In this document: one piece after another, positions 27,268 to 41,693 of the stretch
Layout: each line of letters begins with the position of its first letter
Numbering within the stretch: the stretch's first letter is position 1
NCBI GenBank assembly: GCA_964585935.1
Contig: CAZPFO010000002.1
Coordinates: 7,465-71,464, forward strand
DNA: 64,000 nucleotides
Direction of reading: 5' to 3'
From: an uncultured Methanosarcinales archaeon
GTDB taxonomy: Archaea > Nanobdellota > Nanobdellia > Woesearchaeales > GW2011-AR4
Translations under genes and position numbers: made by a program
Notes under the pieces: generated by a model
Told to the model about the DNA's origin: nothing
The model's database searches: none
Seen by the model: the letters and a program-made list of their open reading frames with translations, nothing else

Positions 27268-28299
27268 TTGATGAAAAAACCATACTTATTAATGCTTTTT
27301 TTAATTTTTTTAGTCAGCTTGTTTTCTTCCTCTGCTTTATTGACATGTGATATTAAGGGTGTTTGTGATAGTGGAGAAGTAGAGATGCTGGAATTAACTG
27401 CTACTCCAAATGCTCATGTTGCTGACCCTAGTTTTGATTCTTACCCTTATAGCATTTGTTGTTCCGGAGTCCCTGGTTTAGGTACAGACAATAGTGGCGA
27501 AACATTTCTTAGGTTGAGCGGCCCTAATAATGCGCATGTGGAAATTAGCACTAACAACAATTATCCAGTATTAGTGAATATTTCGCCATCTCAGGTATCA
27601 TGCAATTACCGGTCTGGCAGCTGTGCAAGCGATTATACATGCCTGGCCTCGATTTCCAGCTCTACTAATGCTGTTGTTGGGGAGTGTGACCCTGGTCCTT
27701 TTGATTACGATACTCAGGTCTGTTGCAAGTGCGATGCAACAATAAAAGGTTATGTCAGTGATGAAGAAGGTTTTCTAGATGGTGTAAAAGTGGAATTATT
27801 TTATGGCTTAAACATGATAGCAGAGTATCCCTCTACAGCAGCAGGGGGTTATTATGAAATGGATGTGCCATGCGGAACATACTCATTAGTGGCATCTAAA
27901 GAAGATTATGTTGTTAGTACAGTGACTGATGTGTCTCTGGGCTTAACAGCTGAAACAGAAATAAATATTACCATGACGTATGGCCTTGTGTGCGAAGCAG
28001 ACTGCACTTATTTGCTGGACGACAGGTGCCATGAAGAGTGTGATGGATTTACTGATGGAGGAGATAGCTGCCAGTTTTATGATAACATTGCCAAAACAAA
28101 ATGCGATCTGGCACAAAGTGGATGGCAGGTAGAGTATGATTCAGACAATATTGTTAGATGCTGTGAGGGTACGCCTGGTGCAGTGACTCAAATAGACACC
28201 GTCATTAACTGTCCTTATAAAAATTTAGTTAAATTTTACAGGATAGTCACTTATCAAGGAAAACCAATAAAAATGGTGACTGTTGTTTGCGGTGATTAA
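27268..28299 (+). CDS. secreted cysteine-rich protein (Sec signal peptide)
   Basis: N-terminal MMKKPYLLMLFLIFLVSLFSSSA signal. About 25 Cys spread in CC/CxC patterns. First gene of the pilus island. Confidence 0.55.
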   Translation: MMKKPYLLMLFLIFLVSLFSSSALLTCDIKGVCDSGEVEMLELTATPNAHVADPSFDSYPYSICCSGVPGLGTDNSGETFLRLSGPNNAHVEISTNNNYPVLVNISPSQVSCNYRSGSCASDYTCLASISSSTNAVVGECDPGPFDYDTQVCCKCDATIKGYVSDEEGFLDGVKVELFYGLNMIAEYPSTAAGGYYEMDVPCGTYSLVASKEDYVVSTVTDVSLGLTAETEINITMTYGLVCEADCTYLLDDRCHEECDGFTDGGDSCQFYDNIAKTKCDLAQSGWQVEYDSDNIVRCCEGTPGAVTQIDTVINCPYKNLVKFYRIVTYQGKPIKMVTVVCGD

Positions 28300-28690
28300 A
28301 ATTAAAGCACAGGCTTGGTCTATGGATGTGGCTTTGGCAGTCGTCATTTTCATAATAGCATTTTTTATCGTATACAGCATAGTTACAAACAAAACATCAG
28401 GAGATGTTTCTGATTTGTATGAGGAGGCAGAAAGAATCTCAAAAGAAGCGGTTTTGCAAAATTCCACTATCAGTCTGGTAAACGGCGAAAGCTTGAATGA
28501 AACAAAAATTAAAAACGTTTTAGGCCAAGATTATTCCGAATTAAAGCGAAAGCTAAGGGTAAACAATGAATTCTGCATTTATTTTGAAGATGAAAATGGA
28601 AATTTGATAGTGTTCCAGAACTCCTCAGATGACAATGCTTCTGGCATAGGCTCGCAGAGCATCAATATCAGCGGGATTGTGTGCAGTTAA
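28292..28690 (+). CDS. pilin-like protein with class-III signal peptide (GTG start)
   Basis: Using GTG at 28292: MIKIKAQAWSMDVALAVVIFIIAFFIVYSIV. This fits the KAQ...hydrophobic pattern shared by the downstream pilins. It overlaps the upstream stop. Confidence 0.45.
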   Translation: MIKIKAQAWSMDVALAVVIFIIAFFIVYSIVTNKTSGDVSDLYEEAERISKEAVLQNSTISLVNGESLNETKIKNVLGQDYSELKRKLRVNNEFCIYFEDENGNLIVFQNSSDDNASGIGSQSINISGIVCS

Positions 28691-28792
28691 TTGTCCTGAG
28701 CTAATGATCTGATAAAGGGGAATCAATGATTGAAAATTTAACCAATAAAAATTAACCTAAAATCAATAAAAAGGACTAGAAAAAAGAGGCAG

Positions 28793-29917
28793 ATGAACCA
28801 TAAAGCTCAGGCAGCATTGGAATTTGTTACTACCTACGGCTGGGCAATAATAATTGTGCTGGTAATGGTGAGTGCTATGGCTTACTTCGGGGTTTTTGAT
28901 TTGTTTAAATTCACACCAGATGTGTGCACTTTTGGCTCTAAATTGGACTGCAAGAGCTCCAGCTTGGTTAGTGATGGGATGAAGCTAAGGCTAATGAACA
29001 ATCTGGGAGAGAATGTTGTGATTAACAATGTGATTGTATCAAGCAAAGGAACTGAGCTAGACTGTACTTCTCCTATGGCTGGAGAGTCATGGTCCAAAAA
29101 AACCATAAAAAACATCGATGTTAGATGTGATTTTAGCAGCTTAGGGTTTGTGGAAGGGGATAAGAAGAAGCTGGAGCTGAAAATCAACTATACAGGGGCT
29201 TTTAACCGCATTGTTGAAGGTGAGATATCTGCAGTAGTTCAGAGCGGAGAGATTGGTTTAAGCGATATTGAGTACTTGAAAAGTATGGATGGCTTGATTT
29301 CATGGTATAGAATGAATGATGATCCTAGCGATGGAATTGATGATGAGATGAATAGAAATCCTGGAACTTGTACAAATTGTCCAGCATTAACAACAGATAA
29401 TTGGGGGAATGCAAATCAGGCTTATGAATTTGACGGTATTAATGATGAAATTAATCTTGGAAATAATCCTTCTATTGCAAATCTAAATGCTAATATAACT
29501 ATCTTAGCTTGGATTAATTTTACAAATACTCCTACAATTAGCGATACAATCATTGGTAAGCCAAATTGGAATTGGCACTTCCAACTTGTGAGCAATAACA
29601 AAATAACTTTTAGGAGATGGAATCCTTATATGAGTACTAGTAGTAATATGGCTTTAATACAAAATAAATGGCATCATATTAGTACAACACTTTCTTCTAA
29701 CCCAATTAATAACAACAAAATGTATATTGATGGAACACTTGATAATACAGGCACAATCACAACACCTTTAGGAGGTACTGGCGGCATCACAGAGATATCT
29801 GGGTATGTTCAAAGCGACATAGATTGGTTTGATGGCTTAATAGACGAAGTAATGATATTTAACAGAAGCTTAACAGCTTCGGAGATAGATACAATCTATG
29901 GATTGGATTTGAGTTAA
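28793..29917 (+). CDS. type IV pilin-like protein with C-terminal LamG (concanavalin-like lectin) domain
   Basis: MNHKAQAALEFVTTYGWAIIIVLVMVSAMAYFGVF class-III signal (cleavage predicted after KA, mature QAALEF.. with Glu+5). C-terminal region AYEFDGINDEINLG...WHHISTT...MYIDGTL...FDGLIDEVMIFNRSLTASEI matches LamG_3-type motifs. Confidence 0.7.
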   Translation: MNHKAQAALEFVTTYGWAIIIVLVMVSAMAYFGVFDLFKFTPDVCTFGSKLDCKSSSLVSDGMKLRLMNNLGENVVINNVIVSSKGTELDCTSPMAGESWSKKTIKNIDVRCDFSSLGFVEGDKKKLELKINYTGAFNRIVEGEISAVVQSGEIGLSDIEYLKSMDGLISWYRMNDDPSDGIDDEMNRNPGTCTNCPALTTDNWGNANQAYEFDGINDEINLGNNPSIANLNANITILAWINFTNTPTISDTIIGKPNWNWHFQLVSNNKITFRRWNPYMSTSSNMALIQNKWHHISTTLSSNPINNNKMYIDGTLDNTGTITTPLGGTGGITEISGYVQSDIDWFDGLIDEVMIFNRSLTASEIDTIYGLDLS

Positions 29918-30125
29918 GCTTATTATTAAAATTTAACCAATAAAAATTAAACCAAAATCAAAAAAAGAAACCATTAAAAAGTTTAATAATAAAAAATAAA
30001 ACAAAAAATCAATAAAAAGAACTAGAAAAAAATAAAACAGAAAAAAAGATAAGCTATTCAAAGGTTAATTGGCCAGCAGGGAAAATTTAAGTTGGTCAGA
30101 ACTTGCCGGCAATATTCAAGTCAAG

Positions 30126-30680
30126 ATGATTAAAATCGGTCAAAAAAGAAGATGGGGGGCAAACAAAAGGGGTTATTTTTTTGTTTTGGATGCTTTGCTT
30201 GCCCTTGGGGTCCTGGTTATGGGAGTTAGCCTTCTCCTAGCTGCTTATACGAGAACGCCGGAAAAAGGGCAGACAACAAATCTGGCAGAAGATGTACTGG
30301 ACTTTTTTGCAAAAACAAAAATAGAGGATTTCAACAACCCTTATTTTGGGCCTTCAGGCACTTTGGTGCGGGAAGGGTATATCAAGGATGAAAAAAAGAC
30401 ACTGCTGCAGCAACTAGGGGAGTTCTATGTTAATGGTGACCTTGATACTGCGGAAAAACTAATAACAAACGTGACTGAAAATCTAATCCAGGTCCAGTAC
30501 AAATATGAATTTTCGATTGAAGGTATAAGAGTATACCCTCAAAGCCCTTCTCAGGAGTTTTTAACATCAAAAAACAATGCAAAAGTTTTGTTTCCATCAA
30601 AAAAATTCAGTTTTGGGACAATAAACAATACCCTGGATTTATTTGGACCTTATGAGGTAGAGGTTTTAGTATGGCAGTAA
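30126..30680 (+). CDS. pilin/pseudopilin-like protein
   Basis: From ATG 30126: MIKIGQKRRWGANKRGYFFVLDALLALGVLVMGVSLLLAAY. A basic stretch is followed by a hydrophobic helix with an acidic residue near +5/+6. Confidence 0.45.
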   Translation: MIKIGQKRRWGANKRGYFFVLDALLALGVLVMGVSLLLAAYTRTPEKGQTTNLAEDVLDFFAKTKIEDFNNPYFGPSGTLVREGYIKDEKKTLLQQLGEFYVNGDLDTAEKLITNVTENLIQVQYKYEFSIEGIRVYPQSPSQEFLTSKNNAKVLFPSKKFSFGTINNTLDLFGPYEVEVLVWQ

Positions 30681-31654
30681 GACATAATAAAAAAGGAGTA
30701 TTTTTTACCTTCATAGCTATCCTTCTGGTAATGGTTCTTATGATGGTCTTTAATCCACAAACAGAGACGAGCTTTGATAAAGATTTTCCAAGCTTAAAAA
30801 CAAGAGTATCAAAAATTGACAATTTTATAACAGAGTTTGAAGCAGTATATCTTGAAAGAATATTGCAGAGTGCAACATATAAGGCCCTAATATCATTAAC
30901 TTATTATATGGACCAAAGGGATAGTTTTCTCACAGATTTGCAAGGGGATTTTAAGGAGGTTGTATTGTTTGGGACTATAGAAGGAGGCACAAAAATTGAC
31001 GACATTACCGGAGAAGATATCATGAAGAACAGTACGCTTCTGAACTGGACTGACAAAATAAAAGCGATTGCAAAAGACAATCTGAATATAGACATGAACA
31101 TTACAGTAACAGATGTTTCTATTAACCAATCAACACCATGGTTGGTTGATGTAATGCTCAGCCTGGACTATACGGTTTCGTCGGAAACAGCATTCTGGAG
31201 AAGGGAAAATGTCCTGATAAAGACAAAGTTAGGCACAGGCAATCTTTACGATCCTTTGTATTATGTAAACACAGACGGGGTTTATGAAAAGAAAGTTGTG
31301 CAGACTAATATAAGATTAGGGGAATGGAATGCAACAGCCTTAAAACAATTCATAAGAAATGACACATATTTCCGATGGCAGGGCACTAATGCCTCGAGCT
31401 TTTTAATGAGATTCACAAACACCTTTGAACCTTCACAGTGTTGCGGCATTGAATCTGTTGTTAACCCGAATAATATAGCTCCTTCTGACGTGATTGAAAG
31501 CTATGTTGATTATCACTTCTGGAATGATACTTACGAAGACCAGTGTGAAAAACTATACAATATAACGGAAATCTGGGATGAATTTGATGGATTTAAGTTA
31601 GATTTTGATTATACTATAAAATATAATGTAACAGGCGGGGAACGAACCTGTTAA
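30671..31654 (+). CDS. pilin-like protein (large, class-III-like N-terminus)
   Basis: MAVRHNKKGVFFTFIAILLVMVLMMVF... Many N-x-T/S sequons in the body, consistent with an archaeal surface glycoprotein. Confidence 0.45.
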   Translation: MAVRHNKKGVFFTFIAILLVMVLMMVFNPQTETSFDKDFPSLKTRVSKIDNFITEFEAVYLERILQSATYKALISLTYYMDQRDSFLTDLQGDFKEVVLFGTIEGGTKIDDITGEDIMKNSTLLNWTDKIKAIAKDNLNIDMNITVTDVSINQSTPWLVDVMLSLDYTVSSETAFWRRENVLIKTKLGTGNLYDPLYYVNTDGVYEKKVVQTNIRLGEWNATALKQFIRNDTYFRWQGTNASSFLMRFTNTFEPSQCCGIESVVNPNNIAPSDVIESYVDYHFWNDTYEDQCEKLYNITEIWDEFDGFKLDFDYTIKYNVTGGERTC

Positions 31655-31714: not shown

Positions 31715-32167
31715 ATGGTTACAAAGAGCACTATCCTACAGACCGCGGCAGACCAATTAGTTGATTTTGTCATGAGCAAAGAAAAAGTCACGATAGAAGA
31801 GACAGCAAAAAGATTGAAGATACCCACAAAAACGGTTCAGGCATTGGTTGATTTTTTGGTTGAAGAAAAGGTGCTGGGCATAGAATATAAATTTACAACG
31901 CCTTATATTTATTTAAGCAAAAAAGACTCAAAAGAGCATTCCTTAACAAGAAAAAAAGAAGCGCCGGTTTTGATTTCAAAAGAGGAATTTTATGAAAAAT
32001 CAAAATCAAGAGATATATCCTACCAAAAGATAGGAGGCTTATGGAAAAAATACCTTGAAAAGCAGTTAGGGGGTGTGAGGGAGCAATTTTTTGAAAGAGC
32101 AAAAGAAAAAAAAATACATCCTGAAAAAATAGAAGGGTTATGGCAGAAATACCTCACTTATCTATGA
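31715..32167 (+). CDS. hypothetical protein, possible N-terminal winged-helix, internal KIxGLWxKYL repeat
   Basis: N-terminus IEETAKRLKIPTKTVQALVDFLVEEKVLGIEY is wHTH-like. KIGGLWKKYLEKQL and KIEGLWQKYLTYL are repeated. Confidence 0.35.
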   Translation: MVTKSTILQTAADQLVDFVMSKEKVTIEETAKRLKIPTKTVQALVDFLVEEKVLGIEYKFTTPYIYLSKKDSKEHSLTRKKEAPVLISKEEFYEKSKSRDISYQKIGGLWKKYLEKQLGGVREQFFERAKEKKIHPEKIEGLWQKYLTYL

Positions 32168-32183: not shown

Positions 32184-33236
32184 ATGGACATAGACGAATT
32201 TTTGGATAAAGAGGAAGGTTCGCTTACAGGAAAGGAACCTGTAGAAGATAAAAAAACTGCAGAAGAAGGGCAGGAGATAGAAGAGCCTGTTATAGATGAG
32301 GAAGTATCTCCGATAATTGTTAAAGGGTACAAGGGCATTTTGGAAGAGATAAGCAAGTGTATTGAAAAAAATGATTTAATACAGGCAGAAAAGCTTTATT
32401 CTAAGCTTTGGCTTAAAATAACTGAGGATAAATTTACCTGGCAACAAGGAATGTATGATGACTTAATCCATATAAGCAACAGGCTAAAGGGCTCTGTAAA
32501 CAACCTGCAAAGCGAAACAACAGCAAAAATAGACACTATTCGCAGTTTGATAGTGGGTGTGAGGAAGAGCCTGAAAGAAGGGAAAGCTGAATCTGCTTTA
32601 ATTGCTTACTCAGAGATGATAGATGTTTACAACAAGATTCACTCCCAATTCTCTATGGAAAAAAAAGTGATTTATATAAATGAGATATTGCCATTATACT
32701 GGGAACTAAAGGACAGGGTGGAGAAGGTATTCTCCCAGAATTTCAATTTTGAGCTATCCCGCATTAATAATCTTATTCAGTCAACTAAAATAGCATTGCA
32801 AAAACATAAAGTTGAAAAATCAGCACAACTTTACAAAAACTGCTTCGATGGGTATAATGCACTGCCAGGTGGCTTTTTTCTTGAAAAAATAGAATTAGGC
32901 GCTAAGATTCTGGAACTTTACAAAGAGATGACAATTGTTCTTGAAATAGGGGATTTGAAATCCAGACTTAGGCTTGGGATGGGAGATGCTGGCAAAAGAA
33001 AGTATAGCACAAATATTCCTGCAAGGAGTGCAGTAGTACCGGGGAGACCGCCACTGCCTAAAATAGCCGGAGCACCACCTCTGCCAAACAATCTCAAAAG
33101 GTCTATTTCCCCTGAAATGCCAAATGTGGCTGCAGAAAGCGCTTCAAAAAAAAATTTAAAAGGGGAATTGATAAAAAGAAAAATAGGGAGCCTGTTGTCC
33201 AAGCGCAATAAAAGCCACATAAAAGAAGGCAATTAA
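32184..33236 (+). CDS. hypothetical alpha-helical protein with proline-rich C-terminus
   Basis: Acidic N-terminus, a long helical body, and C-terminal PGRPPLPKIAGAPPLP. It sits directly upstream of the secretion ATPase. Confidence 0.35.
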   Translation: MDIDEFLDKEEGSLTGKEPVEDKKTAEEGQEIEEPVIDEEVSPIIVKGYKGILEEISKCIEKNDLIQAEKLYSKLWLKITEDKFTWQQGMYDDLIHISNRLKGSVNNLQSETTAKIDTIRSLIVGVRKSLKEGKAESALIAYSEMIDVYNKIHSQFSMEKKVIYINEILPLYWELKDRVEKVFSQNFNFELSRINNLIQSTKIALQKHKVEKSAQLYKNCFDGYNALPGGFFLEKIELGAKILELYKEMTIVLEIGDLKSRLRLGMGDAGKRKYSTNIPARSAVVPGRPPLPKIAGAPPLPNNLKRSISPEMPNVAAESASKKNLKGELIKRKIGSLLSKRNKSHIKEGN

Positions 33237-33333: not shown

Positions 33334-34809
33334 TTGCAGGAAAAAATCATAGAATCTTATGAACTTTTGGTCAATGATATAATTGTAGATGTCGTGATTA
33401 AATATGTCGAGGGGGAGGCTGTGCCCTTATACACTATTTCTATTACAAACATCACTGATACGACTAAAATAGTCCTGGAGAAGATTAGGGAGGAATTTGT
33501 AGCAGAAGAAACAAAAGATCTTGCAGTAGGCCCTGAAGGCCTTATTGTTAAGGATATCCAAGAGCAGTTTAGAAAAAAAATATTAAAACTTTTAAAAAAA
33601 TATTTCCCTAATGCGGATAAAAAAACAATGGATATGCTTGTTAATTATGTCCTGCAGCAGAATATAGGATTGGGCAATATCGAGATATTATTAAAGGACA
33701 TAAACCTTGAGGAGATTGTGATAAACAGCGCTACAGAACCGCTATGGGTTTACCATAGAAGATATGGATGGCTAAAAACAAATGTTAAAGTGCCGAATGA
33801 GGCCAGAATCAGGCACTATTCCTCAATCATTGGAAGGGATGTTGGGAAGGAGATAACAGTCCTGAACCCATTAATGGATGCTCATTTGAAAACAGGAGAC
33901 AGGGTAAATGCAACCTTGCTTCCTATTTCATCAAAAGGCAATACAATAACCATAAGAAAATTTTCAGTAAGGCCCTGGACAATTACTGATTTTATTAAAG
34001 ACAATGTTGTGTCATACGAGGCTGCTGCCTTGCTTTGGATGGCTGTGCAGAACGAGCTGTCAGTTCTAATCACGGGAGGTACAGCTTCTGGTAAAACTTC
34101 TATGCTTAATGTAATCTCAAATTTCTTTCCCCCTAACCAGAGAATTCTCAGCATAGAGGACACAAGAGAGCTTCAATTGCCCAGCATACTGCACTGGGTT
34201 CCTTTGGAAACAAGGCTGCCCAACCCGGAAGGGAAAGGGGGAGTGAGTATGCTTGATTTGATTGTCAACTCATTAAGAATGAGGCCTGACAGAATAATAG
34301 TTGGAGAAATCAGGCGTAAAAGGGAGGCGGAGGTCCTGTTTGAAGCAATGCATACAGGCCATTCTGTGTATGGAACTTTGCATGCGAATAATGCAAGGGA
34401 AACAGTAATAAGGCTTACAACTCCCCCTATTGACCTGCCAAAAGCAATACTTTCTGCATTATCCTTAATTGTTGTTCAAAATCTCAACAGAAGAACAGGG
34501 AAGAGGAGAATGTTGCAGATAGCGGAAGTTTTACCAAATGGCGACCCCAACGTTCTAATGCAGTTAAATGCCCATAAAGGGCGTTTGGAGAAGGTTAATG
34601 AACCCAAGGCCATAATGGAAACCTTAAATCTTTACACAGGCTTTTCAAAAGAGGAAATAAATAAGGATTTAAAAGGAAAGGAAAAGATACTTCATTGGAT
34701 GGTGAGAAAAAACATTAATGATATCAATAAAGTAGGCCTTATTATGTCAAAGTATTATCTCGATAAGCCATTTTTAAAAGAAAAAGGGGTGGAAAAATCG
34801 CAGATATAG
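33334..34809 (+). CDS. type II/IV secretion ATPase (FlaI/ArlI/VirB11/TadA family), pilus assembly ATPase
   Basis: Walker A GGTASGKTS, Walker B/Asp box RPDRIIVGEIR, His box MHTGHSVYGTLHANNA. The track start is TTG at 33334. Confidence 0.85.
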   Translation: MQEKIIESYELLVNDIIVDVVIKYVEGEAVPLYTISITNITDTTKIVLEKIREEFVAEETKDLAVGPEGLIVKDIQEQFRKKILKLLKKYFPNADKKTMDMLVNYVLQQNIGLGNIEILLKDINLEEIVINSATEPLWVYHRRYGWLKTNVKVPNEARIRHYSSIIGRDVGKEITVLNPLMDAHLKTGDRVNATLLPISSKGNTITIRKFSVRPWTITDFIKDNVVSYEAAALLWMAVQNELSVLITGGTASGKTSMLNVISNFFPPNQRILSIEDTRELQLPSILHWVPLETRLPNPEGKGGVSMLDLIVNSLRMRPDRIIVGEIRRKREAEVLFEAMHTGHSVYGTLHANNARETVIRLTTPPIDLPKAILSALSLIVVQNLNRRTGKRRMLQIAEVLPNGDPNVLMQLNAHKGRLEKVNEPKAIMETLNLYTGFSKEEINKDLKGKEKILHWMVRKNINDINKVGLIMSKYYLDKPFLKEKGVEKSQI

Positions 34810-35609: not shown

Positions 35610-35619
35610 GTGTTTTTTT

Positions 35620-36651
35620 ATGCCGCTTAAGTTAGTATTTTTAGACGAGTTTGGAAAAGCATTTGTCCCTAAGAAGGCTGTGCCTTATCTTAGGAAATAC
35701 CTGCTAAAAGCGAATATTTCTCCAGTGCCCTACAAATTTTTTGGAGCCTTGTTCTACCTTACAGCCTTGATTACAGCAATAATTTATATATTGTTTATCT
35801 ATCCGTTTTTAACACAATATCCTCCACTGGCCTTGCTCCTACTTTCTTTTTCATCCTGGTTTGTTACTCAATTCTTCTTTGCAGCTTTATTCATCATGCT
35901 TATTTATTTCTACCTTGATTTGAAAATTTACCGCAGGACAAAGCATCTGGAGGAGATGCTTCCTGATTTCCTGCAAGTAGTATCCTCAAATTTAAAGGGG
36001 GGAATGTCTTTTGAGAACTCATTATGGGCTGCAATAAAACCCAGGTTCTCTATCCTGGCAAACGAGATGGCAGAAGTGTCAAAAAAAGTTATGACTGGTT
36101 ACGATGTTGACAAGGCTTTGATAGAGTTATCAGAAAAGTACAACTCCACTACCCTAAAGCGCGCTGTTGACCTTATAATAAGCGAGTTAGAAAGCGGGGG
36201 CAATATAGCAGAATTGATTGATAAGGTTGTCGAAAATATGAAAAGGACTAAAAATTTAAAAGCTGATATGGTTGCATCCGCTACTTCCTATATAATCTTT
36301 ATTGGGGTGATAGTAGTTCTGATAGCTCCATTGCTTTTTTCTCTTTCATATACTTTATTGATTGTTGTGTCTGGCTTTATGTCAAAGATTTCAAGCGCTA
36401 CACAAAATGCCCCCAATATACCATTTTCATTCGGCCAGGTATCGGTTGACCTGGAAAGTTTCAAGATATTCTCATATTTAGCAGTTTCTGTCATCGCGCT
36501 TTTTTCTTCAATGATAGTAGCTATAGTTGAGAAAAATGATATCAGGGGGGGCATTAAATACATACCCATGTTTTTGGCTGGCTCTCTGATTTTTTATACT
36601 ATATTCATGAATGTGCTGTCACTTTTATTTTCGGGTTTAGCTCCCGCTTAA
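35620..36651 (+). CDS. T2SS-F domain membrane protein (FlaJ/TadC-like platform, part 2)
   Basis: LEEMLPDFLQVVSSNLKGGMSFENSLWAAI...ALIELSEKYNSTTLKRAVDLIISELESGGNIAELI is a classic GspF/TadC cytoplasmic domain, flanked by TM helices. Confidence 0.7.
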   Translation: MPLKLVFLDEFGKAFVPKKAVPYLRKYLLKANISPVPYKFFGALFYLTALITAIIYILFIYPFLTQYPPLALLLLSFSSWFVTQFFFAALFIMLIYFYLDLKIYRRTKHLEEMLPDFLQVVSSNLKGGMSFENSLWAAIKPRFSILANEMAEVSKKVMTGYDVDKALIELSEKYNSTTLKRAVDLIISELESGGNIAELIDKVVENMKRTKNLKADMVASATSYIIFIGVIVVLIAPLLFSLSYTLLIVVSGFMSKISSATQNAPNIPFSFGQVSVDLESFKIFSYLAVSVIALFSSMIVAIVEKNDIRGGIKYIPMFLAGSLIFYTIFMNVLSLLFSGLAPA

Positions 36652-36666: not shown

Positions 36667-36942
36667 ATGATCCAGATAGAGAATAATGTAAAAAGAGGTA
36701 AGAAAAAAATGGAGCACCATCGTCATAAGCTTTTTATGGGGATTACGTCTATAGTTATATTGATTTTAGGCCTGATCTTCGGCGTTTTCTTGGTTTCAAA
36801 TAATAACGGCCTTATCAGCATAGACGGCATAAACTTCGCTTTATTGCTGACTACAATAATACTGCTCCTTATGAACGGGGGCTTGATTTTAGAAATGAGG
36901 GATATTTTAACTGAAAAAACAAAAAAATCCAAACGCAAATGA
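36667..36942 (+). CDS. small hypothetical membrane protein
   Basis: Two TM helices with basic termini. ATGA overlap with the next pilin gene. Confidence 0.35.
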   Translation: MIQIENNVKRGKKKMEHHRHKLFMGITSIVILILGLIFGVFLVSNNNGLISIDGINFALLLTTIILLLMNGGLILEMRDILTEKTKKSKRK

Positions 36943-37442
36943 TATTGACGATTAAAAGCAGGGGTAAAGGCCAGATAGCATTGGAATTCCTGACTACATA
37001 CGGCTGGGCATTTCTGGTCATTATAATAATGATATCTGCTTTGGCTTATTTTGGAATCTTAGACCCGAGCAAATTATTGCCTGACAGGTGCAACTTCGGC
37101 ACTGAGATCGGGTGTGCGGATCATCTGCTTGATGCAAGCGGCGATAATTTCAGGTTGAGATTGAAGAATAATGTTGGCGAGATTATAACAGTTTCCGGTA
37201 TTTCCTTAAGCAGTCAAACAGCTACATCATTTACCTGTAGTTCGTTCGATTCCGGAAATCCTTCAAATTGGAAAAGCGGGAATATAGAAGACCTCTCATG
37301 GAGCGGCTGCACCTGGAGTTCGGCGGGATTCGAGCCCGGCAGCAAAGCCAAAATAGAGGTAAAAATAACATATAACAAGGTCAAAAGTGGAGCAAGCTAC
37401 CCCCATGATGTCCATGGCGAGGTTTTAGCAACAGTAGGCTAA
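36939..37442 (+). CDS. type IV pilin-like protein (class-III signal peptide, QxxLE[FY] type)
   Basis: MILTIKSRGKGQIALEFLTTYGWAFLVIIIMISALAYFGIL: KG then QIALEF with Glu+5. Confidence 0.7.
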   Translation: MILTIKSRGKGQIALEFLTTYGWAFLVIIIMISALAYFGILDPSKLLPDRCNFGTEIGCADHLLDASGDNFRLRLKNNVGEIITVSGISLSSQTATSFTCSSFDSGNPSNWKSGNIEDLSWSGCTWSSAGFEPGSKAKIEVKITYNKVKSGASYPHDVHGEVLATVG

Positions 37443-37624
37443 TTTTACTTTTTCTGTGTTGATAAGGTGAAAAAGGGAAAGAGTTAAATAGAATAAAAGA
37501 AAAAATTAAGATTATCAATAATAAAAATAATCAAGATTTAATAAAATTATTAGTAAGAATTAAACAATAAATAAAAATTATCAATAAGAAATTATCACTA
37601 ATAAAAATAATCAATAAAAAACAA

Positions 37625-37860
37625 ACCAATGAGTGCACAAACAGTGATTCCTTGGTTGTGAGTGTTTATGTGCGGTCGTTTTTTTATTTTAAAATCCTAA
37701 AAAATCAAAGATTTTTGGGACACCAAAAATTCTGAAGGAATTTTTTAGTGTTTTAAAACAATTGAAAAAATAAATAAAAAACGCTGCTGGAAAACGAGCA
37801 AATAATTGTGAATGTGGAACATGAATAATGATTAAATATTTAAATGATAGAAATTGATTA
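37625..37860 (+). repeat. conserved upstream module, copy 1 (blocks A, B, C), preceded by ATCAATAAAAA-type repeats from about 37500
   Basis: Block A CCAATGAGTGCACAAACAGTG..GTTGTGAGTGTTTATGTGCGGTCG plus T-run at 37625-37690. Block B AAAAACGCTGCTGGAAAACGAGCAAATAATTGTGAATGTGGAACATGAATAATG at 37776-37830. Block C ATTTAAATGATAGAAATTGATTAA follows. ATG of the pilin gene is at 37888. Confidence 0.7.
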
Positions 37861-37887
37861 AAATACTGATTAAAAAAGAGGTACAAA

Positions 37888-38370
37888 ATGGGCAATAGAA
37901 AAGCTCAGGCAGCGCTGGAATTTCTTACTACATACGGCTGGGCAATTCTGGTTATATTGATTACGATAAGCGCGCTTTATTACTTCGGAATCTTTGATTT
38001 TACCAAATATCTTCCTCAGGAATGTAATTTCCCGCCGCAATTCAAGTGTATTGACTTTAGCATGATAGATGAAGGAGGAACTCAGGAGATAAGATTCCTG
38101 CTTTTGAATAATATTGGGGAGGAGGTTTATGTAGAGGGATTCGATATAACGAATAATGCAGATCCGCCTCTGGAATGTACAGGGCCAACAAACACTCCTG
38201 AGTGGGTGAGTGGTGAAGAGAAGGATTTTGTATTTACCAACTGCCAATATGGAGTGTTTATAGAGGGAGAAAGAATTGAAGCCAAAATAAATTTTACATA
38301 CTATGCTCCTCTTACGCCTTCTCAACCAAGACATACTGTAAGAGGAAAAATAACAGGCACAGTAGGATGA
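37888..38370 (+). CDS. type IV pilin-like protein (class-III signal peptide)
   Basis: MGNRKAQAALEFLTTYGWAILVILITISALYYFGIF. Confidence 0.75.
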   Translation: MGNRKAQAALEFLTTYGWAILVILITISALYYFGIFDFTKYLPQECNFPPQFKCIDFSMIDEGGTQEIRFLLLNNIGEEVYVEGFDITNNADPPLECTGPTNTPEWVSGEEKDFVFTNCQYGVFIEGERIEAKINFTYYAPLTPSQPRHTVRGKITGTVG

Positions 38371-38816
38371 AAGCACAATCTGCCTTGGAATATCTGATGG
38401 TCGTAGCACTGACGCTAATGATAATTGTACCTACAACTTACTTGTTTTATAGCTATTCAAAACAATCGACAGACCAGCTGATTTATCCCCAGATAAATGG
38501 TATAGGAAGAGAAATTATAAGCACTGCAGAATCGGTTTATTATTCTGGCGAGCATTCAAGAATTGTCATGGACATCAACATGCCTGAGAAAGTCAATGAT
38601 GTTTATATCCTTGACGAGAGGGAGCTTGTTTTTGAGATTGAGGGTGAATCAGGAAACAATGAAATGGTTTTTTTCTCAGATGTCAACATAACCTCTGATT
38701 CAGATTCGTGCACTACAGTAAAATGCTATGTAAATATATCGTCTTCTGGAATAAAAAAAGTAAAGATAGAGTCTATCAACCAAGGCAGAGAGGTTTTGAT
38801 TAATAAAACAGGATGA
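38367..38816 (+). CDS. pilin-like protein (class-III signal peptide)
   Basis: MKAQSALEYLMVVALTLMIIVPTTYLF; ATGA overlap with the upstream pilin. Confidence 0.6.
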   Translation: MKAQSALEYLMVVALTLMIIVPTTYLFYSYSKQSTDQLIYPQINGIGREIISTAESVYYSGEHSRIVMDINMPEKVNDVYILDERELVFEIEGESGNNEMVFFSDVNITSDSDSCTTVKCYVNISSSGIKKVKIESINQGREVLINKTG

Positions 38817-39814
38817 TCAAACCATACAAAAAAGCCCAGTTTGGAATAGAATTCGTCATACTAATCACTTTTATGCTCATAGTATTTCTTGGGTTTTTTG
38901 GCATAATCACATACAAATTGGCTGATCTGGAAGAAGAGGGAAAGCAGCAGGCAGCAGCAAATATAGCTTTATTGGTGGATAATGAAGTAAAGCTGGCTAA
39001 ATCCTCTAATAATGGCTATGAAAGGGTTTTTGAAATTCCTAGTAAAATAGAAGGCAGTGATTATAACATAAGCATTATTGGTAATAGGGAGGTTGTTGTT
39101 GCTTACCCTGGGTATGAGCATATTTTGTTTCTGCCTCCGGGTGTTGAAGGAAATGTAAGCAGCGGCCTTAATAATATTACAAAAACAGAAGGCATTGTAT
39201 ATCTTCAGGGTATTACTCCGGAATGTAACAATGGAGAGGATGATGATGGCGATACTTACTTAGATTCGGCTGATCCAGGCTGTTATATTAATTGTGATTA
39301 TGTAGATGCTGGTAATTTTAGAAGGTATAGGCATGAAGCAGATAGCTGCAGTTGCAGCTCTGTAGGGCAGTGCTGCTCAGGCGCGGGCTTTGGATCTTAT
39401 TATGGCTATTTTGATGGTGATTGTGGCGGAGGCCAGTGCTGGTCAGCATGCTCTATTGGTGAAAATGTGTTGTTGATAATGAGGAACCTTATTTCAAATG
39501 TTATCAGGTTTGAAAATGATGGGGATGTTATATTGAAAGGGCAATTTCAGGATGATGATCCTAACCCTCCTGTTTCAGATGATGATGAATTCATATTTAA
39601 GGATAGAAATGGAATTACTGTTGCAGTGATCAATTTAGGGTCTGGAGATATGTTCATAAATGGAAGCAAATATGAAAACCAGCCAGCATTAACGCCTTCT
39701 CCAACAAGCAATGATTTCATTGTAAAAGACTCTAGTGGAGAGGTGATGTATTACATTGATGAGACTGGAAATCTTTATTTAAAAGGGACTTTAACAGACA
39801 ATGGAAATCCTTGA
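38813..39814 (+). CDS. pilin-like protein with Cys-rich C-terminal domain
   Basis: MIKPYKKAQFGIEFVILITFMLIVFLGFFGIITY, plus a C-terminal cluster of about 14 Cys (CNNGEDDDGDTYLDSADPGCYINCDY...CSCSS..CCSG...CGGGQCWSAC). Confidence 0.6.
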   Translation: MIKPYKKAQFGIEFVILITFMLIVFLGFFGIITYKLADLEEEGKQQAAANIALLVDNEVKLAKSSNNGYERVFEIPSKIEGSDYNISIIGNREVVVAYPGYEHILFLPPGVEGNVSSGLNNITKTEGIVYLQGITPECNNGEDDDGDTYLDSADPGCYINCDYVDAGNFRRYRHEADSCSCSSVGQCCSGAGFGSYYGYFDGDCGGGQCWSACSIGENVLLIMRNLISNVIRFENDGDVILKGQFQDDDPNPPVSDDDEFIFKDRNGITVAVINLGSGDMFINGSKYENQPALTPSPTSNDFIVKDSSGEVMYYIDETGNLYLKGTLTDNGNP

Positions 39815-39952
39815 ATAGAAAAATAAACAATTGAAAAAAAAGCCAATGATAAAAATCAATGAAAAATTCAATATTTAATAAAATTATCAATGAAAAAATA
39901 ACCAATAAGAAAAAAATTCAATAAAAAAATACCAATGAAAATTAAAAAAATA

Positions 39953-40140
39953 ACCAAGGAGTGCACAAACACTGCTTCCTCAATGGTGAGCGTGTATCTG
40001 CAGTCATTTTTTAATTTTTGAAAATTTAAACAATTTAAAAATAAATAAAAAAACTCAGATGATGAAAGCGCAAACAATTGTGCATGTGGAACATAAATAA
40101 TGGCGGAAAATTTAAATGGTAAAAATTGATAATAAAAATT
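39953..40140 (+). repeat. conserved upstream module, copy 2
   Basis: Block A GGAGTGCACAAACACTGCTTCC..GGTGAGCGTGTATCTGCAGTC plus T-run. Block B AAAAACTCAGATGATGAAAGCGCAAACAATTGTGCATGTGGAACATAAATAATG at 40047-40105. Block C AATTTAAATGGTAAAAATTGATAA. ATG at 40188. Confidence 0.7.
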
Positions 40141-40187
40141 TAAAAAATTGATTAAAAAATAATTTAAAATAAATATTGAGGTGAAAA

Positions 40188-41693
40188 ATGAATAAAACAA
40201 AAATAAAGAGAAGATATGGTAAAAAATGCATGGGTGTTTTAAATAAAAAAACTGCATTGAATTCTTTTTTTGCCTCATTTTTAAAGTTCAGCATAGCGGT
40301 AGCTCTGTTGTTTGTAATTGCCTTGTTTGTTACTGCAGGAGATGTTATAATCGAGAACGGCAAACTGAATGTAAACAACAGCTTTTATGTTGATGGTGAT
40401 GGGAATGTAGGGATTGGAACATCGCCGGGTTCAAAATTACATATAAGACAGAGTGTTGATAGTAATGTGGGTGGGTTTATGATACAAGATGTTGGTGGGG
40501 CTAATTTTAGGATTTGGAAAGATTCTGGAAACACTTATTTTTATAGAGGGCCAACACTTAATTTAATGACTTTTAATGATGCAACAGGTAATGTTGGCAT
40601 TGGGACGACGAGTCCTACTAAAAAATTACAGATTCAAGGCGGCAATGATAACGGTATTTTGATTACTGATGCAAGTGATAATAATAGGGTTATTTTAGCT
40701 CCTGATGGTGATGGTGATGGGGAAATTTCTTTGTATGATCAATCAACAGTATTAAAAGTATTAATTAGAGCTAGTGGAGATTCTTTTTTAGATGGGGGCA
40801 ACGTCGGAATTGGGACGGCGAGTCCTGGGGCACCCCTTCATATTAAAAGAGATAGTAGTTTGAGTGCCACGCAACATCTAATAATTTCAAATACAGATCC
40901 AACAAATGGCAATGCCGCATATATAAAGTTTCTTGGTTCAAGTGTGGTTAATTATGGTGATATAGGTACAGAATTTGTAGATCGCACAAGCGGTTCAGAG
41001 GACGGAAGTCTTATTTTTAGTACACGTGTTAATGGGGCGATGGCAGAGGGGATGCGAATTCATAACGGCAACGTCGGCATTGGGACGGCAAACCCTCAAG
41101 AAACGCTCCATGTTCGTGGCTGGATTATGACAGAGACAGCAGCCGCAAATCCGAGCGTGCATTTTAAAGACTCTACTTCTGGTCAAGTCTATACTCTACA
41201 GATAGACAGCAGCAACAATAATTTTCAGTTATATGACAATACTGCAGGCCAATCGCGTATTGTTGTAAAAACCGATGGCAATGTCGGCATCGGAACAACT
41301 AACCCAGATCATGACCTGGAGATTGGCACTGGAACCTATTCAGAGATTGACGCAGGTGAAGCACAATTCACCACAGGTTCGTCTAAAGAGTACAAAGAAA
41401 ACATTCGGCCGATAGCAGTACAAAAGATACTTGATAAAATCTCTACTATTCCTGTAACTACTTATGATTTCAGAGAAGAATATTGTGATAGTGCAGATGA
41501 TAAATGCAAAAATAAGCTGGGCCTGATAGCAGAAGATTTTCATGTGATCTTCAAAAGAGGTTCTGATAAGGAGATTAATGGACAAGAAGTGCAAATGGCT
41601 TTATGGCTTGCTGTTCAGGAGTTAACCAAAGAAAACCAACAACTAAAATCAATCATCTGCCTTGATTATAAAGATGCTGAGATTTGCACTTAA
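40188..41693 (+). CDS. tail-fibre-like repeat protein with C-terminal peptidase S74 (intramolecular chaperone) domain; N-terminal signal/anchor
   Basis: Five repeats of the G-N-V-G-I-G-T-(T/A)-(S/N)-P type (DGDGNVGIGTSPGSKLHI, TGNVGIGTTSPTKKLQI, GGNVGIGTASPGAPLHI, NGNVGIGTANPQETLHV, DGNVGIGTTNPDHDLEI). The C-terminus SSKEYKENIRPI...IPVTTYDF...LGLIAEDFHVIF...ALWLAVQELTKENQQLK matches the S74 SDxRxKxNI / coiled-tail pattern. Confidence 0.7.
   Translation: MNKTKIKRRYGKKCMGVLNKKTALNSFFASFLKFSIAVALLFVIALFVTAGDVIIENGKLNVNNSFYVDGDGNVGIGTSPGSKLHIRQSVDSNVGGFMIQDVGGANFRIWKDSGNTYFYRGPTLNLMTFNDATGNVGIGTTSPTKKLQIQGGNDNGILITDASDNNRVILAPDGDGDGEISLYDQSTVLKVLIRASGDSFLDGGNVGIGTASPGAPLHIKRDSSLSATQHLIISNTDPTNGNAAYIKFLGSSVVNYGDIGTEFVDRTSGSEDGSLIFSTRVNGAMAEGMRIHNGNVGIGTANPQETLHVRGWIMTETAAANPSVHFKDSTSGQVYTLQIDSSNNNFQLYDNTAGQSRIVVKTDGNVGIGTTNPDHDLEIGTGTYSEIDAGEAQFTTGSSKEYKENIRPIAVQKILDKISTIPVTTYDFREEYCDSADDKCKNKLGLIAEDFHVIFKRGSDKEINGQEVQMALWLAVQELTKENQQLKSIICLDYKDAEICT

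What the first reader, a model, noticed from the sequence alone, without database searches (positions are those of the whole stretch)
27268..41693. Archaeal type IV pilus-like island with many class-III-signal pilins, split T2SS-F platform, FlaI-type ATPase and no visible prepilin peptidase
At least eight ORFs start with K-(A/G)-Q-x-x-L-E-[FY]-hydrophobic N-termini (28292, 28793, 30126, 30671, 36939, 37888, 38367, 38813). Glu at +5 is the pattern of methanococcal EpdE-type (DUF361) pilins and bacterial T4P. They flank a VirB11/FlaI ATPase (33334-34809) and a two-gene T2SS-F platform (34857-36651). Two unknown soluble proteins sit upstream of the ATPase: one with a wHTH-like N-terminus and an internal KIxGLWxKYL repeat, the other with a polyproline tail. 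They may be novel assembly or regulatory components. Such a pilin-rich locus in a likely host-associated small-celled archaeon suggests an attachment organelle.
Basis: partly seen in the sequence, partly recalled or inferred. Interest (0 to 1): 0.6.

Follow-up and report, generated by a model that had tools for sequence, protein, structure and literature searches.

The report
Woesearchaeal type IV pilus gene cluster
This is the gene cluster for a type IV pilus (a thin adhesive surface filament) in a tiny DPANN archaeon. It is an ordinary kind of machine, except that it carries a conserved pair of undescribed cytoplasmic helper proteins, and its signal-cutting enzyme is encoded elsewhere in the genome.

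Summary
The observation mostly holds. Window 27268-39814 (+ strand) encodes a complete archaeal type IV filament assembly set. It has one T2SSE/VirB11-family ATPase, two paralogous single-domain T2SSF platform proteins and eight proteins with class-III-like signals. Only five of the eight fit the stated K-[AG]-Q-x-x-x-E-[FY] motif; the other three carry different conserved variants. The five strict matches are the only ones in 64 kb (0 in 100 shuffles).

The cluster is not a foreign island. The same gene order recurs in about 80 Woesearchaeota/Nanoarchaeota genomes. Two platform genes are a published feature of the Epd-like "System 1" pili reported in methanogens and DPANN, though not unique to it. 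The ATPase is not FlaI; its nearest solved relative is Archaeoglobus GspE.

No A24 prepilin peptidase lies in the window or beside 79 of 80 related loci. Relatives do have a large (nine predicted TM segments) A24+Arc_PepC peptidase: once next to the locus, and once on another contig of a genome assembly that also carries the locus.

The two "unknown soluble proteins" are real and conserved. A winged-helix domain sits directly upstream of the ATPase in 60 loci, either alone or fused to the helical-repeat protein.

Verdict: a known kind of system with a lineage-specific accessory module. Interest is modest.

The parts
27268..28299 (+). Secreted Cys-rich protein with a CarboxypepD_reg (Ig-like) domain and a Sec-type signal. 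It overlaps the next gene by 17 nt. Probable surface or adhesin accessory.
   Evidence: Pfam PF13620 1.8e-08. tblastn match in 11 related loci, mostly upstream of the minor pilin genes.
28283..28690 (+). Minor-pilin-like protein, 135 aa. Variant class-III-like signal IKAQ|AWSMD with the acidic residue at +6.
   Evidence: Sequence. Family of 28 ORFs in 22 loci. Same QxW[ST][MI][DE] motif in L050 and L036. Weak DUF7287 hit, E 0.026.
28793..29917 (+). Pilin-adhesin fusion. The N-terminus KAQ|AALEFVTTYGWA is paralogous to the 36939 and 37888 pilins. A C-terminal concanavalin-A-like lectin (Laminin_G_3) domain occupies residues 215-365.
   Evidence: Pfam PF13385 2.1e-23. Nucleotide repeat D1 links 28802-28902 to 36966-37066 and 37900-38000 at 67-75% identity.
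30126..30680 (+). Minor-pilin-like protein with signal NKRG|YFFVLDALLAL. The ORF opens at 30069, but homologues start just before the KKRG motif, so ATG 30126 is the likely start.
   Evidence: Family in 34 loci. L016 MKKRGAYFFVLDA, L002 KKRGYFFVLDA, L036 HKKGYFFIIDA.
30671..31654 (+). Minor-pilin-like protein, 327 aa, with signal NKKG|VFFTFIAIL and no acidic residue. It overlaps the previous gene.
   Evidence: Family in 38 loci, always after the 30126 family.
31715..32167 (+). Cytoplasmic 150-aa accessory protein. It has an N-terminal winged-helix domain (residues about 10-68) and two helical F..K..I..LW.KYL repeats.
   Evidence: 501 homologues, none with a precomputed Pfam domain among the 120 listed. 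21 invariant residues in 54 sequences. AF2 pLDDT 65.8. Foldseek finds PCI/AspA/MarR winged helices at E about 1e-2. 683 clusters at 50% identity.
32184..33236 (+). Cytoplasmic all-helical repeat protein, 350 aa. It has an invariant N-terminal peptide MDIDEFLDKE, a confident helical core (residues 45-266), a disordered Pro-rich linker and a basic C-terminal helix.
   Evidence: AF2 core pLDDT 85-95. Only weak TPR/14-3-3/Rap-like fold matches, E>=0.035 and TM<=0.19. TPR Pfam domains on 3 homologues.
33334..34809 (+). Assembly ATPase of the T2SSE/VirB11 (GspE/FlaI/TadA) family, 491 aa. By eye, Walker A (GGTASGKTS), Asp box (IEDTRE), Walker B (DRIIVGEIR) and His box (HTGHSVYGTLHA) motifs are intact.
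   Evidence: Pfam T2SSE 1.6e-39. NCBIfam FlaI 249 bits, below the 550 cutoff. PDB 2oap afGspE 2.6e-68. 55-78% identity to the 80 fetched relatives, which were the best of 578 confirmed.
34857..35609 (+). Platform protein 1, with one T2SSF domain (TadB/EpdJ-like half).
   Evidence: Pfam T2SSF 1.1e-11. Collinear 20%-identity alignment with platform 2, E 0.001. Present in 79 of 81 loci.
35620..36651 (+). Platform protein 2, with one T2SSF domain (TadC/EpdK-like half).
   Evidence: Pfam T2SSF 2.3e-12. Present in 74 of 81 loci.
36667..36942 (+). Small membrane ORF (91 aa; two hydrophobic segments by eye) overlapping the start of the next pilin gene. Whether it is a real gene is uncertain.
   Evidence: Detected by tblastn in only one other locus, L011.
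36939..37442 (+). Pilin, 167 aa (KGQ|IALEFLTTYGWA). Candidate filament subunit.
   Evidence: Strict motif. Family of 71 ORFs in 40 loci. Weak Class_IIIsignal hit, 11.7 bits.
37596..37690 (+). Terminator-like hairpin plus T-run, one copy of a genome-specific intergenic repeat. It probably separates the upstream operon from the 37888-39814 pilin operon.
   Evidence: Hairpin fold z-score -2.2.
37888..38370 (+). Pilin, 160 aa (KAQ|AALEFLTTYGWA). Candidate major filament subunit and first gene of a three-gene overlapping operon.
   Evidence: Strict motif. Paralogue of the 36939 pilin. No PDB sequence relative.
38367..38816 (+). Minor pilin, 149 aa (MKAQ|SALEYLMVV).
   Evidence: Strict motif. Family in 20 loci.
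38813..39814 (+). Pilin, 333 aa (KKAQ|FGIEFVIL), with a Cys-rich and acidic C-terminal region. Candidate adhesive minor pilin.
   Evidence: Strict motif. NCBIfam acidic double-disulfide repeat 4e-06, below cutoff. Weak DUF7266 hit.
40188..41693 (+). Neighbouring surface protein. It has a signal anchor, GNVGIGT repeats and a C-terminal Peptidase_S74 intramolecular-chaperone domain. Membership of the pilus system is doubtful.
   Evidence: Pfam PF13884 3e-07. Found in only 1 of 81 related loci. Preceded by its own copy of the intergenic repeat.

Best explanation
Window 27268-39814 is the chromosomal gene cluster for an Epd/Tad-like archaeal type IV pilus (type IV filament, TFF) of a Woesearchaeota-type DPANN archaeon.

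Shown here:
- One secretion ATPase with motifs that look intact by eye.
- Two paralogous one-domain T2SSF platform proteins.
- Eight proteins whose N-termini carry a basic residue, then Gly/Ala, then a hydrophobic helix. Five of them have Q at +1 and E at +5.
- Adhesin-type domains fused to or adjacent to pilins (LamG lectin, Cys-rich repeat, Ig-like CarboxypepD_reg).
- Two cytoplasmic accessory proteins conserved immediately upstream of the ATPase.

Inferred from characterised Epd, Aap, haloarchaeal Pil and bacterial Tad systems:
- The prepilins are inserted into the membrane.
- An A24 aspartic prepilin peptidase, encoded outside this window and probably a large EppA-like form as in relatives, removes the short basic leader after [KR][AG].
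- The hexameric ATPase docks on the platform heterodimer. It uses ATP hydrolysis to lift mature pilins out of the bilayer and stack them through their N-terminal helices, with E+5 neutralising the N-terminus of a neighbouring subunit.
- The 160- and 167-aa paralogues are the most likely filament subunits.
- The three variant-signal proteins upstream and the 149-aa protein act as minor or priming pilins.
- The LamG-bearing and Cys-rich pilins decorate the fibre for adhesion.

The winged-helix protein and the helical-repeat protein are one fused gene in about half of the related loci. They most likely form a cytoplasmic scaffold or regulator bound to the ATPase-platform complex. A role as transcriptional regulator of the operon is the second possibility.
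For: - Domains: T2SSE, T2SSF twice, Laminin_G_3, CarboxypepD_reg.
- ATPase relatives: afGspE, FlaI and CpaF.
- Motif: five strict matches, all inside the cluster, with 0 in shuffles.
- A logo from 93 ORFs in 37 sequences (the window plus 36 related loci) gives [KR][AG]|QAA[LM]EFLxTYGWA.
- Synteny across 81 loci: ATPase 81, platform proteins 79 and 74, winged-helix protein 57, pilins about 40, minor pilins about 38 (clusters).
- A winged-helix domain was detected in 61 ORFs. 60 of them lie immediately upstream of the ATPase: 28 as a free ~150-aa protein and 32 as the N-terminus of 265-1142-aa helical proteins. No T2SSE fusion was seen.
- Two platform genes are a published feature of System 1/Epd loci and of some DPANN 4A loci (10.64898/2026.04.22.720090). 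They are also reported in clade 1 and many clade 2 loci (PMC4858521).
- Peptidase in relatives: L036:4678-5814(-) is an A24+Arc_PepC protein with nine predicted TM segments, next to the pilus locus. It has 107 homologues, several named prepilin peptidase in Woesearchaeota. P0126 lies on contig 21 of assembly JAFGRO01, and the pilus locus L076 lies on contig 76 of the same assembly.
Against: - No peptidase could be shown for this particular genome. The source contig beyond the window was not retrievable.
- The only Woesearchaeal A24 subfamily found sits in a conserved HxsD/radical-SAM operon. It may therefore serve another substrate.
- Pfam Class_IIIsignal is not reached. No pilin structure could be modelled with a deep alignment, and no PDB relative exists.
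- The ATPase was not placed on a reference tree. System 1, clade 2 and 4A therefore remain unresolved; its best solved relative is afGspE, whose clade was not determined here.
- No short (about 70 aa) EpdE/Flp-type major pilin is present in the window.
- Filament formation, adhesion and any host association are untested.
Confidence: 0.85

Rival explanations
1. The cluster builds a short membrane-anchored pseudopilus or bindosome-like platform for secretion or substrate capture, not an extended adhesive pilus.
For: The same core machinery drives bindosomes and T2SS pseudopili. The 2026 preprint proposes functionalised TFF machines. There are many large 'pilins' carrying extra domains, and no obvious short major pilin was found.
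Against: No substrate-binding protein or ABC transporter carrying a class III signal is encoded in the cluster. Two paralogous 160-167-aa pilins with a highly conserved N-terminal helix form the most duplicated family, with 71 ORFs in 40 loci. That is what would be expected of filament subunits.
Confidence: 0.08
2. The pilus is mainly a DNA-uptake or cell-cell exchange organelle rather than an adhesin, as proposed for the pili of other ultra-small cells.
For: Type IV pili of ultra-small CPR/DPANN cells have been linked in the literature to eDNA uptake and cell-cell contact (PMC9938205).
Against: No ComEC/DprA-like or nuclease genes were recognised in the cluster. The lectin and Cys-rich domains on pilins point to adhesion.
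Confidence: 0.1
3. It is an archaellum (motility) locus.
For: The top NCBIfam hit of the ATPase is FlaI at 7.6e-74.
Against: The score of 249 bits is far below the FlaI cutoff of 550. No ArlH/KaiC-like, ArlF/G or archaellin genes were seen in the cluster. Relative L036 carries, downstream of its pilus locus, a separate gene run that by eye looks like ArlH (KaiC-like Walker motif), ArlI (544 aa) and ArlJ (556 aa) (not tested with profiles). This suggests the two systems are distinct.
Confidence: 0.02
4. The conserved N-termini are ordinary Sec signals or membrane anchors that no prepilin peptidase cleaves, so the proteins are simply anchored surface proteins encoded next to a secretion ATPase.
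For: No A24 peptidase lies in the window or beside 79 of 80 related loci. Pfam Class_IIIsignal is below threshold. Makarova et al. noted two nanoarchaea with a secretion ATPase but no A24 peptidase (PMC4858521).
Against: The invariant Q+1/E+5 spacing after [KR][AG] is conserved in 93 ORFs. It has the same register as the methanococcal EppA substrates, for which Q at +1 is described in the Pfam DUF361 entry (from memory). A24 peptidases exist in the lineage and co-occur with the locus in assembly JAFGRO01 and in L036.
Confidence: 0.04

Closest known systems
Epd pilus of Methanococcus maripaludis / archaeal TFF 'System 1' (Makarova clade 1)
   Same: One ATPase plus two separate platform (TadC-like) genes. 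Many pilin genes with Q at +1 and E at +5. Pilins or accessory proteins with adhesin-type domains. A large A24 peptidase with nine predicted TM segments (EppA-like size) is present in relatives. System 1 is already reported in DPANN.
   Different: The peptidase is not in the locus. No FleN/MinD ATPase, DUF2341 giant proteins or transglutaminase-like peptidase were recognised in the cluster. No short EpdE-type pilin is in the window. Pfam DUF361 is not reached. The locus has a winged-helix and helical-repeat cytoplasmic pair that is not mentioned for System 1. The clade of the ATPase was not determined.
Bacterial Tad/Flp pilus (CpaF/TadA, TadB, TadC, TadE/F pseudopilins, TadV/CpaA peptidase)
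   Same: The ATPase is a homologue (CpaF 171 bits). The platform is split into two one-domain proteins. The pilin signal has the acidic/aromatic pair at +5/+6. Relatives' peptidases are labelled CpaA-like by JGI. Tad is thought to derive from an Epd-like archaeal system (stated in 10.64898/2026.04.22.720090).
   Different: No secretin (RcpA), TadZ/CpaE, TadD or TadG. The pilins are 150-370 aa with globular domains rather than about 50-aa Flp. The host is an archaeon without an outer membrane.
Euryarchaeal clade 2 pili (Haloferax PilB3/PilC3 with PilA pilins; Archaeoglobus GspE)
   Same: The best solved relative of the ATPase is A. fulgidus GspE. There is a weak PilB3_C hit at the C-terminus (E 0.022). 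Many clade 2 loci also have two tadC genes, and a few nanoarchaea fall in clade 2 (PMC4858521).
   Different: The PilA-type pilin N-terminus is not seen. The 2026 preprint describes System 2 as having a single platform gene and extended ATPases.
Archaellum (ArlI/ArlJ/ArlH with archaellins)
   Same: Homologous ATPase and platform families, and class III signals.
   Different: The FlaI cutoff is not met. No ArlH, ArlF/G, ArlCDE/X or archaellins were seen. The platform is split. Relative L036 appears to have a separate archaellum-like gene run (by eye).

Membership tests
Type IV filament (TFF) superfamily | Secretion ATPase of the T2SSE/VirB11 family | tested here: met
   PF00437 1.6e-39, 136 bits against a cutoff of 24.9. 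PDB relatives are afGspE, FlaI and CpaF.
Type IV filament (TFF) superfamily | Polytopic platform protein with T2SSF domain(s) | tested here: met
   PF00482 in 34857-35609 (45.2 bits) and in 35620-36651 (47.4 bits), against a cutoff of 25.2.
Type IV filament (TFF) superfamily | Filament subunits with a class III signal: short basic leader, G/A at -1, hydrophobic N-terminal helix | tested here: met
   Eight ORFs show the pattern and five have Q+1/E+5. The signal is enriched against shuffles and conserved in orthologues. Actual cleavage is not testable here.
Type IV filament (TFF) superfamily | A24-family prepilin peptidase in the genome | not testable with these tools
   Absent from the 64-kb window. 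The rest of the genome could not be retrieved. It is present in relatives: L036 next to the locus, and assembly JAFGRO01 on another contig.
Epd-like / archaeal TFF System 1 | Platform encoded by two genes | tested here: met
   Present in 74-79 of 81 related loci. The criterion comes from 10.64898/2026.04.22.720090; it is also met by some clade 2 and 4A loci.
Epd-like / archaeal TFF System 1 | Pilins of the DUF361/Class_IIIsignal type (Q at +1, QxSxE motif) | tested here: inconclusive
   Q+1 and E+5 are present in five ORFs. PF04021 scores only 11.7 bits against a cutoff of 23.7, and for one protein only.
Epd-like / archaeal TFF System 1 | Dedicated 9-TM EppA-type peptidase (arCOG02300) | not testable with these tools
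   Only seen in relatives. L036 encodes a 378-aa protein with nine predicted hydrophobic segments, Arc_PepC at 8.3e-09 and Peptidase_A24 at 24.0 bits, below the 26.5 cutoff. Orthology to EppA was not tested.
Epd-like / archaeal TFF System 1 | ATPase branches in Makarova clade 1 | not tested
   No reference EpdL or clade sequences were obtainable. The best solved relative is afGspE, whose clade was not determined here.
Archaellum | ArlI/FlaI equivalog plus ArlH, ArlF/G and archaellins in the locus | tested here: not met
   The NCBIfam FlaI model scores 249 bits against a cutoff of 550. No KaiC-like ArlH or archaellin domain was found in the cluster.
Bacterial Tad pilus | Secretin RcpA, TadZ/CpaE and short Flp pilin alongside TadA/B/C | tested here: not met
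   Only the TadA/B/C-equivalent parts are present. No short pilin was found, and no secretin or TadZ domain appears in the Pfam scans.

The most novel reading that the evidence does not exclude
The winged-helix protein (31715-32167) and the helical-repeat protein (32184-33236) could be a previously undescribed, obligatory cytoplasmic subunit of the DPANN pilus motor. They are one fused polypeptide in about half of the related loci. The subunit would dock on the ATPase or platform and act as a scaffold, positioning factor or on/off switch. In role, though not in ancestry, this would parallel ArlH/ArlCDE of the archaellum or TadZ/PilM of bacterial systems. The acidic, invariant 'recognition' helix (D46, F47, E50) and the invariant wing (EYKFT) fit protein binding rather than DNA binding.
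Probability: 0.3. Interest if true: 0.5.

Novelty: new variant of a known kind. Interest (0 to 1): 0.33.

Why it matters
DPANN archaea such as Woesearchaeota are thought to live attached to other cells. Their pili are prime candidates for host recognition, yet none has been studied experimentally.

This work shows that the locus is a lineage-wide, vertically conserved Epd/Tad-like machine. It defines the pilin signal logo ([KR][AG]|QAAxEFLxTYGWA). It identifies which proteins carry adhesin domains. It also singles out an unannotated protein family that is almost always glued to the ATPase gene: 683 clusters at 50% identity, with no Pfam model among the listed hits.

These are concrete targets for structure prediction of complexes, heterologous expression and cryo-ET. 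The work also removes the apparent paradox of a pilus system without a peptidase, because the enzyme is simply unlinked in this lineage.

Tried and rejected
- **First A24 screen was too strict.** The regexes G.[GASC]D.K and G.[GA]D gave no true hit and missed the real peptidase in L036, whose motif is SAGDAKL. A listing of multi-TM ORFs found it. phmmer and a 100-sequence DPANN A24 profile then confirmed that the window and the other loci lack it.
- **Extending beyond the window failed.** Four exact-protein look-ups found nothing or only 1-2.6-kb metagenome contigs. Cluster look-up gave no accession numbers.
- **Same-sample peptidase check failed.** Two peptidase hits on short NCBI contigs came from unrelated assemblies.
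- **Shared repeat ancestry rejected.** Profile-profile comparison of the 150-aa and 350-aa accessory families gave probability 0.2%.
- **No solved relatives by sequence.** PDB sequence searches with a pilin, platform 2 and the L036 peptidase found nothing.
- **Fold search of the 350-aa protein.** It gave only generic helical-repeat matches.
- **Rfam.** No family was found in the window, so the intergenic repeat remains unclassified.
- **TafC.** The weak NCBIfam TafC hit of the LamG pilin (30.5 bits against a cutoff of 410) most likely reflects a shared beta-rich/lectin-like region with a haloarchaeal Tat-fimbria subunit. It is not membership.
- **'Horizontally acquired island' rejected.** Composition is uniform and synteny is conserved.

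Full report
**What is there**

All genes discussed lie on the + strand, and most are separated by overlaps or gaps of under about 150 nt. In order they are:

- a secreted Cys-rich protein with a CarboxypepD_reg domain (27268-28299);
- a 135-aa protein starting IKAQAWSMD (28283-28690);
- a 374-aa protein starting HKAQAALEF and ending in a Laminin_G_3 lectin domain (28793-29917);
- a protein starting NKRGYFFVLDA (30126-30680);
- a protein starting NKKGVFFTF (30671-31654);
- two soluble proteins (31715-32167 and 32184-33236);
- a T2SSE ATPase (33334-34809);
- two T2SSF proteins (34857-35609 and 35620-36651);
- a doubtful 91-aa membrane ORF (36667-36942);
- four more pilin-like genes (36939-37442, 37888-38370, 38367-38816, 38813-39814).

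Domain assignments come from Pfam and NCBIfam. GC content is uniform across the window.

**Is the motif real?**

I searched all six reading frames of the window for [KR][GA]Q...E[FYLIVM] followed by 16 hydrophobic residues. This gives five hits, all inside the cluster. There were none in 100 shuffles and none in the reversed sequence.

The same search in the window plus 81 fetched loci gave 93 ORFs in 37 sequences. Their logo is [KR][AG]|Q-A-A-[LM]-E-F-L-x-T-Y-G-W-A.

Three proteins have other N-termini: KAQ|AWSMD, KRG|YFFVLDA and KKG|VFFTF. Those variants are themselves conserved in their orthologue families, so all eight are best read as class-III-signal proteins of four or five families.

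Pfam's Class_IIIsignal (DUF361) model is not reached. The only hit is 11.7 bits against a cutoff of 23.7.

**Whose genome, and is it an island?**

The ATPase protein is found identically on a small NCBI metagenome contig. Its relatives at 55-78% identity lie on contigs mostly titled Candidatus Woesearchaeota, Nanoarchaeota or Nanoarchaeia; 578 relatives were confirmed and 80 were fetched.

tblastn of the window's 16 proteins against the 81 loci shows a conserved order: minor pilins, winged-helix protein, helical-repeat protein, ATPase, platform 1, platform 2, pilins. All-against-all clustering of ORFs gives the same families.

In L016 the pilins are followed directly by ORFs that by eye match the window's psmB and aCPSF1 genes, which here lie about 10 kb further downstream. 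This is a vertically inherited chromosomal cluster, not a foreign island.

**Comparison with published systems**

Makarova et al. 2016 (PMC4858521) describe clade 1, the Epd pilus of methanococci. It has an ATPase, two TadC-like genes, many pilins and a dedicated 9-TM A24 peptidase, EppA. They note that many clade 2 loci also have two tadC genes, and that two nanoarchaea had a secretion ATPase but no A24 peptidase.

The 2026 preprint of Sivabalasarma and Albers (10.64898/2026.04.22.720090) screened 16,694 archaeal genomes. It states that System 1 occurs in methanogens, Thermococcales and DPANN and is characterised by two platform genes. It adds that some DPANN 4A loci also have two.

The split platform is therefore an expected feature. 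The two window proteins align collinearly at 20% identity, as paralogous halves should.

The ATPase is not an archaellum motor. The FlaI model scores 249 bits against a cutoff of 550, and the closest solved structure is A. fulgidus GspE (234 bits) ahead of FlaI (173) and CpaF (171). I could not place it on a reference tree, so System 1 versus clade 2 versus 4A is left open.

**The peptidase question**

Four lines of evidence agree that the window has no A24 peptidase:

- Pfam scans of every plausible membrane protein in the window;
- a phmmer search with a Woesearchaeal A24 peptidase;
- a profile built from about 100 DPANN A24 peptidases (best window hit E=0.22);
- the same searches across the related loci, where 79 of 80 also lack it in their 10-kb flanks.

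The exception is L036. A 378-aa protein with nine predicted TM segments lies about 130 nt from the first pilin gene, on the opposite strand. It matches Arc_PepC (8.3e-09) and Peptidase_A24 (24.0 bits, just below cutoff) and carries the motifs YEDIKYNRIRN and SAGDAKL.

It has 107 homologues of 340-400 aa, several named prepilin peptidase in Woesearchaeota. One of them, P0126, lies on contig JAFGRO010000021. The same assembly carries the pilus locus L076 on JAFGRO010000076, with a pilin starting KKSQVAMES.

So the lineage does have A24 peptidases of EppA-like size, normally unlinked to the pilus genes. Whether this particular genome has one could not be tested.

One caution applies. In five genomes this peptidase gene is followed by HxsD, a 75-85-aa ORF and a radical-SAM gene. 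It may therefore have another, or an additional, substrate.

**The two soluble proteins**

The 150-aa protein has 501 homologues in the 5.8-billion-protein collection. None of the 120 listed has a precomputed Pfam domain, and source names are 'hypothetical' or stray HTH labels. A profile search finds 683 clusters at 50% identity.

An alignment of 54 members shows 21 invariant residues. They include the wing E57-Y58-K59-F60-T61 and the two repeats W110..Y113 and W143..Y146. The AlphaFold model (pLDDT 65.8) has a winged helix at residues 11-67 and four C-terminal helices. Foldseek matches only winged-helix domains (PCI, AspA, MarR) at E about 1e-2.

The 350-aa protein diverges fast; only five sequences were found, three of them with TPR hits. 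It has an invariant MDIDEFLDKE N-terminus, a confidently predicted helical core (residues 45-266, pLDDT 85-95), a disordered Pro-rich linker and a conserved basic C-terminal helix. It has no significant fold match.

The key comparative result concerns position. A profile of the winged-helix domain detects 61 ORFs in the fetched loci, and 60 of them lie immediately upstream of the ATPase. Of these, 28 are the free ~150-aa form. The other 32 are the N-terminus of 265-1142-aa helical proteins, some with C-terminal TPRs, that occupy the position of both window genes.

This fusion pattern argues that the two window proteins work together and with the ATPase. The acidic, invariant third helix (D46, F47, E50) fits protein binding better than DNA binding, but this is inference. 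Neither paper read here mentions such a component.

**How it most likely works**

By homology with Epd, Aap, haloarchaeal Pil and bacterial Tad systems, I infer the following steps; none is shown here:

1. The prepilins are membrane-inserted.
2. An A24 peptidase trims them before Q+1.
3. The ATPase, docked on the two-protein platform, polymerises them.

The 160- and 167-aa paralogues belong to the most duplicated family and are the likeliest fibre subunits. The three variant-signal proteins encoded upstream may form a priming or minor-pilin complex. The LamG-bearing and Cys-rich pilins and the secreted Ig-like protein would provide adhesion. There is only one ATPase, so no dedicated retraction motor is evident.

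A hairpin plus T-run at 37596-37690 probably separates the upstream operon from the 37888-39814 pilin operon.

**Verdict**

What is new is modest. The cluster is a conserved Woesearchaeal variant defined by an unannotated winged-helix and helical-repeat accessory module, and its peptidase is unlinked. Interest is 0.33.

Noticed in passing
window 37596-37890, 39924-40190, 50483-50725, 53420-53670 (+) and 46440-46713 (-): A genome-specific intergenic repeat is present in five copies. Its core is GAGTGCACAAACASTG (0.06 matches expected by chance). Each copy lies 50-190 nt downstream of a co-oriented gene. It forms a hairpin of about 55 nt followed by a T-run. In four copies a second conserved module of about 110 nt follows and runs up to the next gene's start codon (pilin 37888, S74 protein 40188, aCPSF1 50721, MetAP 53668). 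It is absent from the 91 loci held at the time of the search and has no Rfam match. It could be a terminator-promoter cassette, a small RNA or a MITE-like element.
   Followed up: partly
L036:2400-5814(-), L085:6001-9345, L087:6001-8466, L089:6001-9262, L091:691-3672 (outside the window): In five Woesearchaeota-type genomes the A24+Arc_PepC peptidase gene is immediately followed by HxsD, and in four of them also by a 75-85-aa ORF and then a gene annotated radical SAM in three. L036 has HxsD and a 471-aa ORF not scanned here, plus a 77-aa ORF ending SHTHHVSHGSHTSY (His-Xaa-Ser repeats). HXS was recently described as a bacterial anti-phage system whose effector HxsA undergoes non-canonical N-terminal cleavage (PMC13128918). 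That paper does not mention a peptidase. An archaeal HXS-like operon with its own A24 peptidase may be worth a separate look.
   Followed up: partly
window 40188-41693 (+): A 501-aa signal-anchored protein has repeated GNVGIGT(T/A)SP motifs and a C-terminal Peptidase_S74 intramolecular-chaperone domain of the phage tail-fibre/endosialidase type. It is encoded just after the pilin operon and found in only one related locus (L010).
   Followed up: partly
window 41710-43617 (-): A 635-aa protein fuses an amino-acid permease (12 predicted TM segments) to a C-terminal SAM-dependent methyltransferase domain. It is conserved beside the pilus cluster in five sequences (the window and four related loci).
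   Followed up: no
window 8808-9455 (-): A 215-aa protein has an N-terminal anchor and a C-terminus (VPEPLSAILFISGAAVLGTKRFFKKR) resembling a PEP-CTERM sorting signal (Pfam E 0.06, below cutoff). This hints at an exosortase/archaeosortase substrate.
   Followed up: no
window 11701-24168 (-): A contiguous run of genes reads by eye like carB, carA, argC, argD, argB, argJ, argH, argF and argG. That would be a complete arginine pathway, notable for a DPANN-type genome usually described as metabolically reduced. It was not tested with profiles.
   Followed up: no
L036:14314-19398 (outside the window): Relative L036 carries, directly downstream of its pilus locus, what looks by eye like an archaellum operon. 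It has two small archaellin/ArlF/G-like ORFs, a KaiC-like ArlH, a 544-aa ArlI-like ATPase and a 556-aa ArlJ-like membrane protein. Some Woesearchaeota may therefore have both systems side by side.
   Followed up: no
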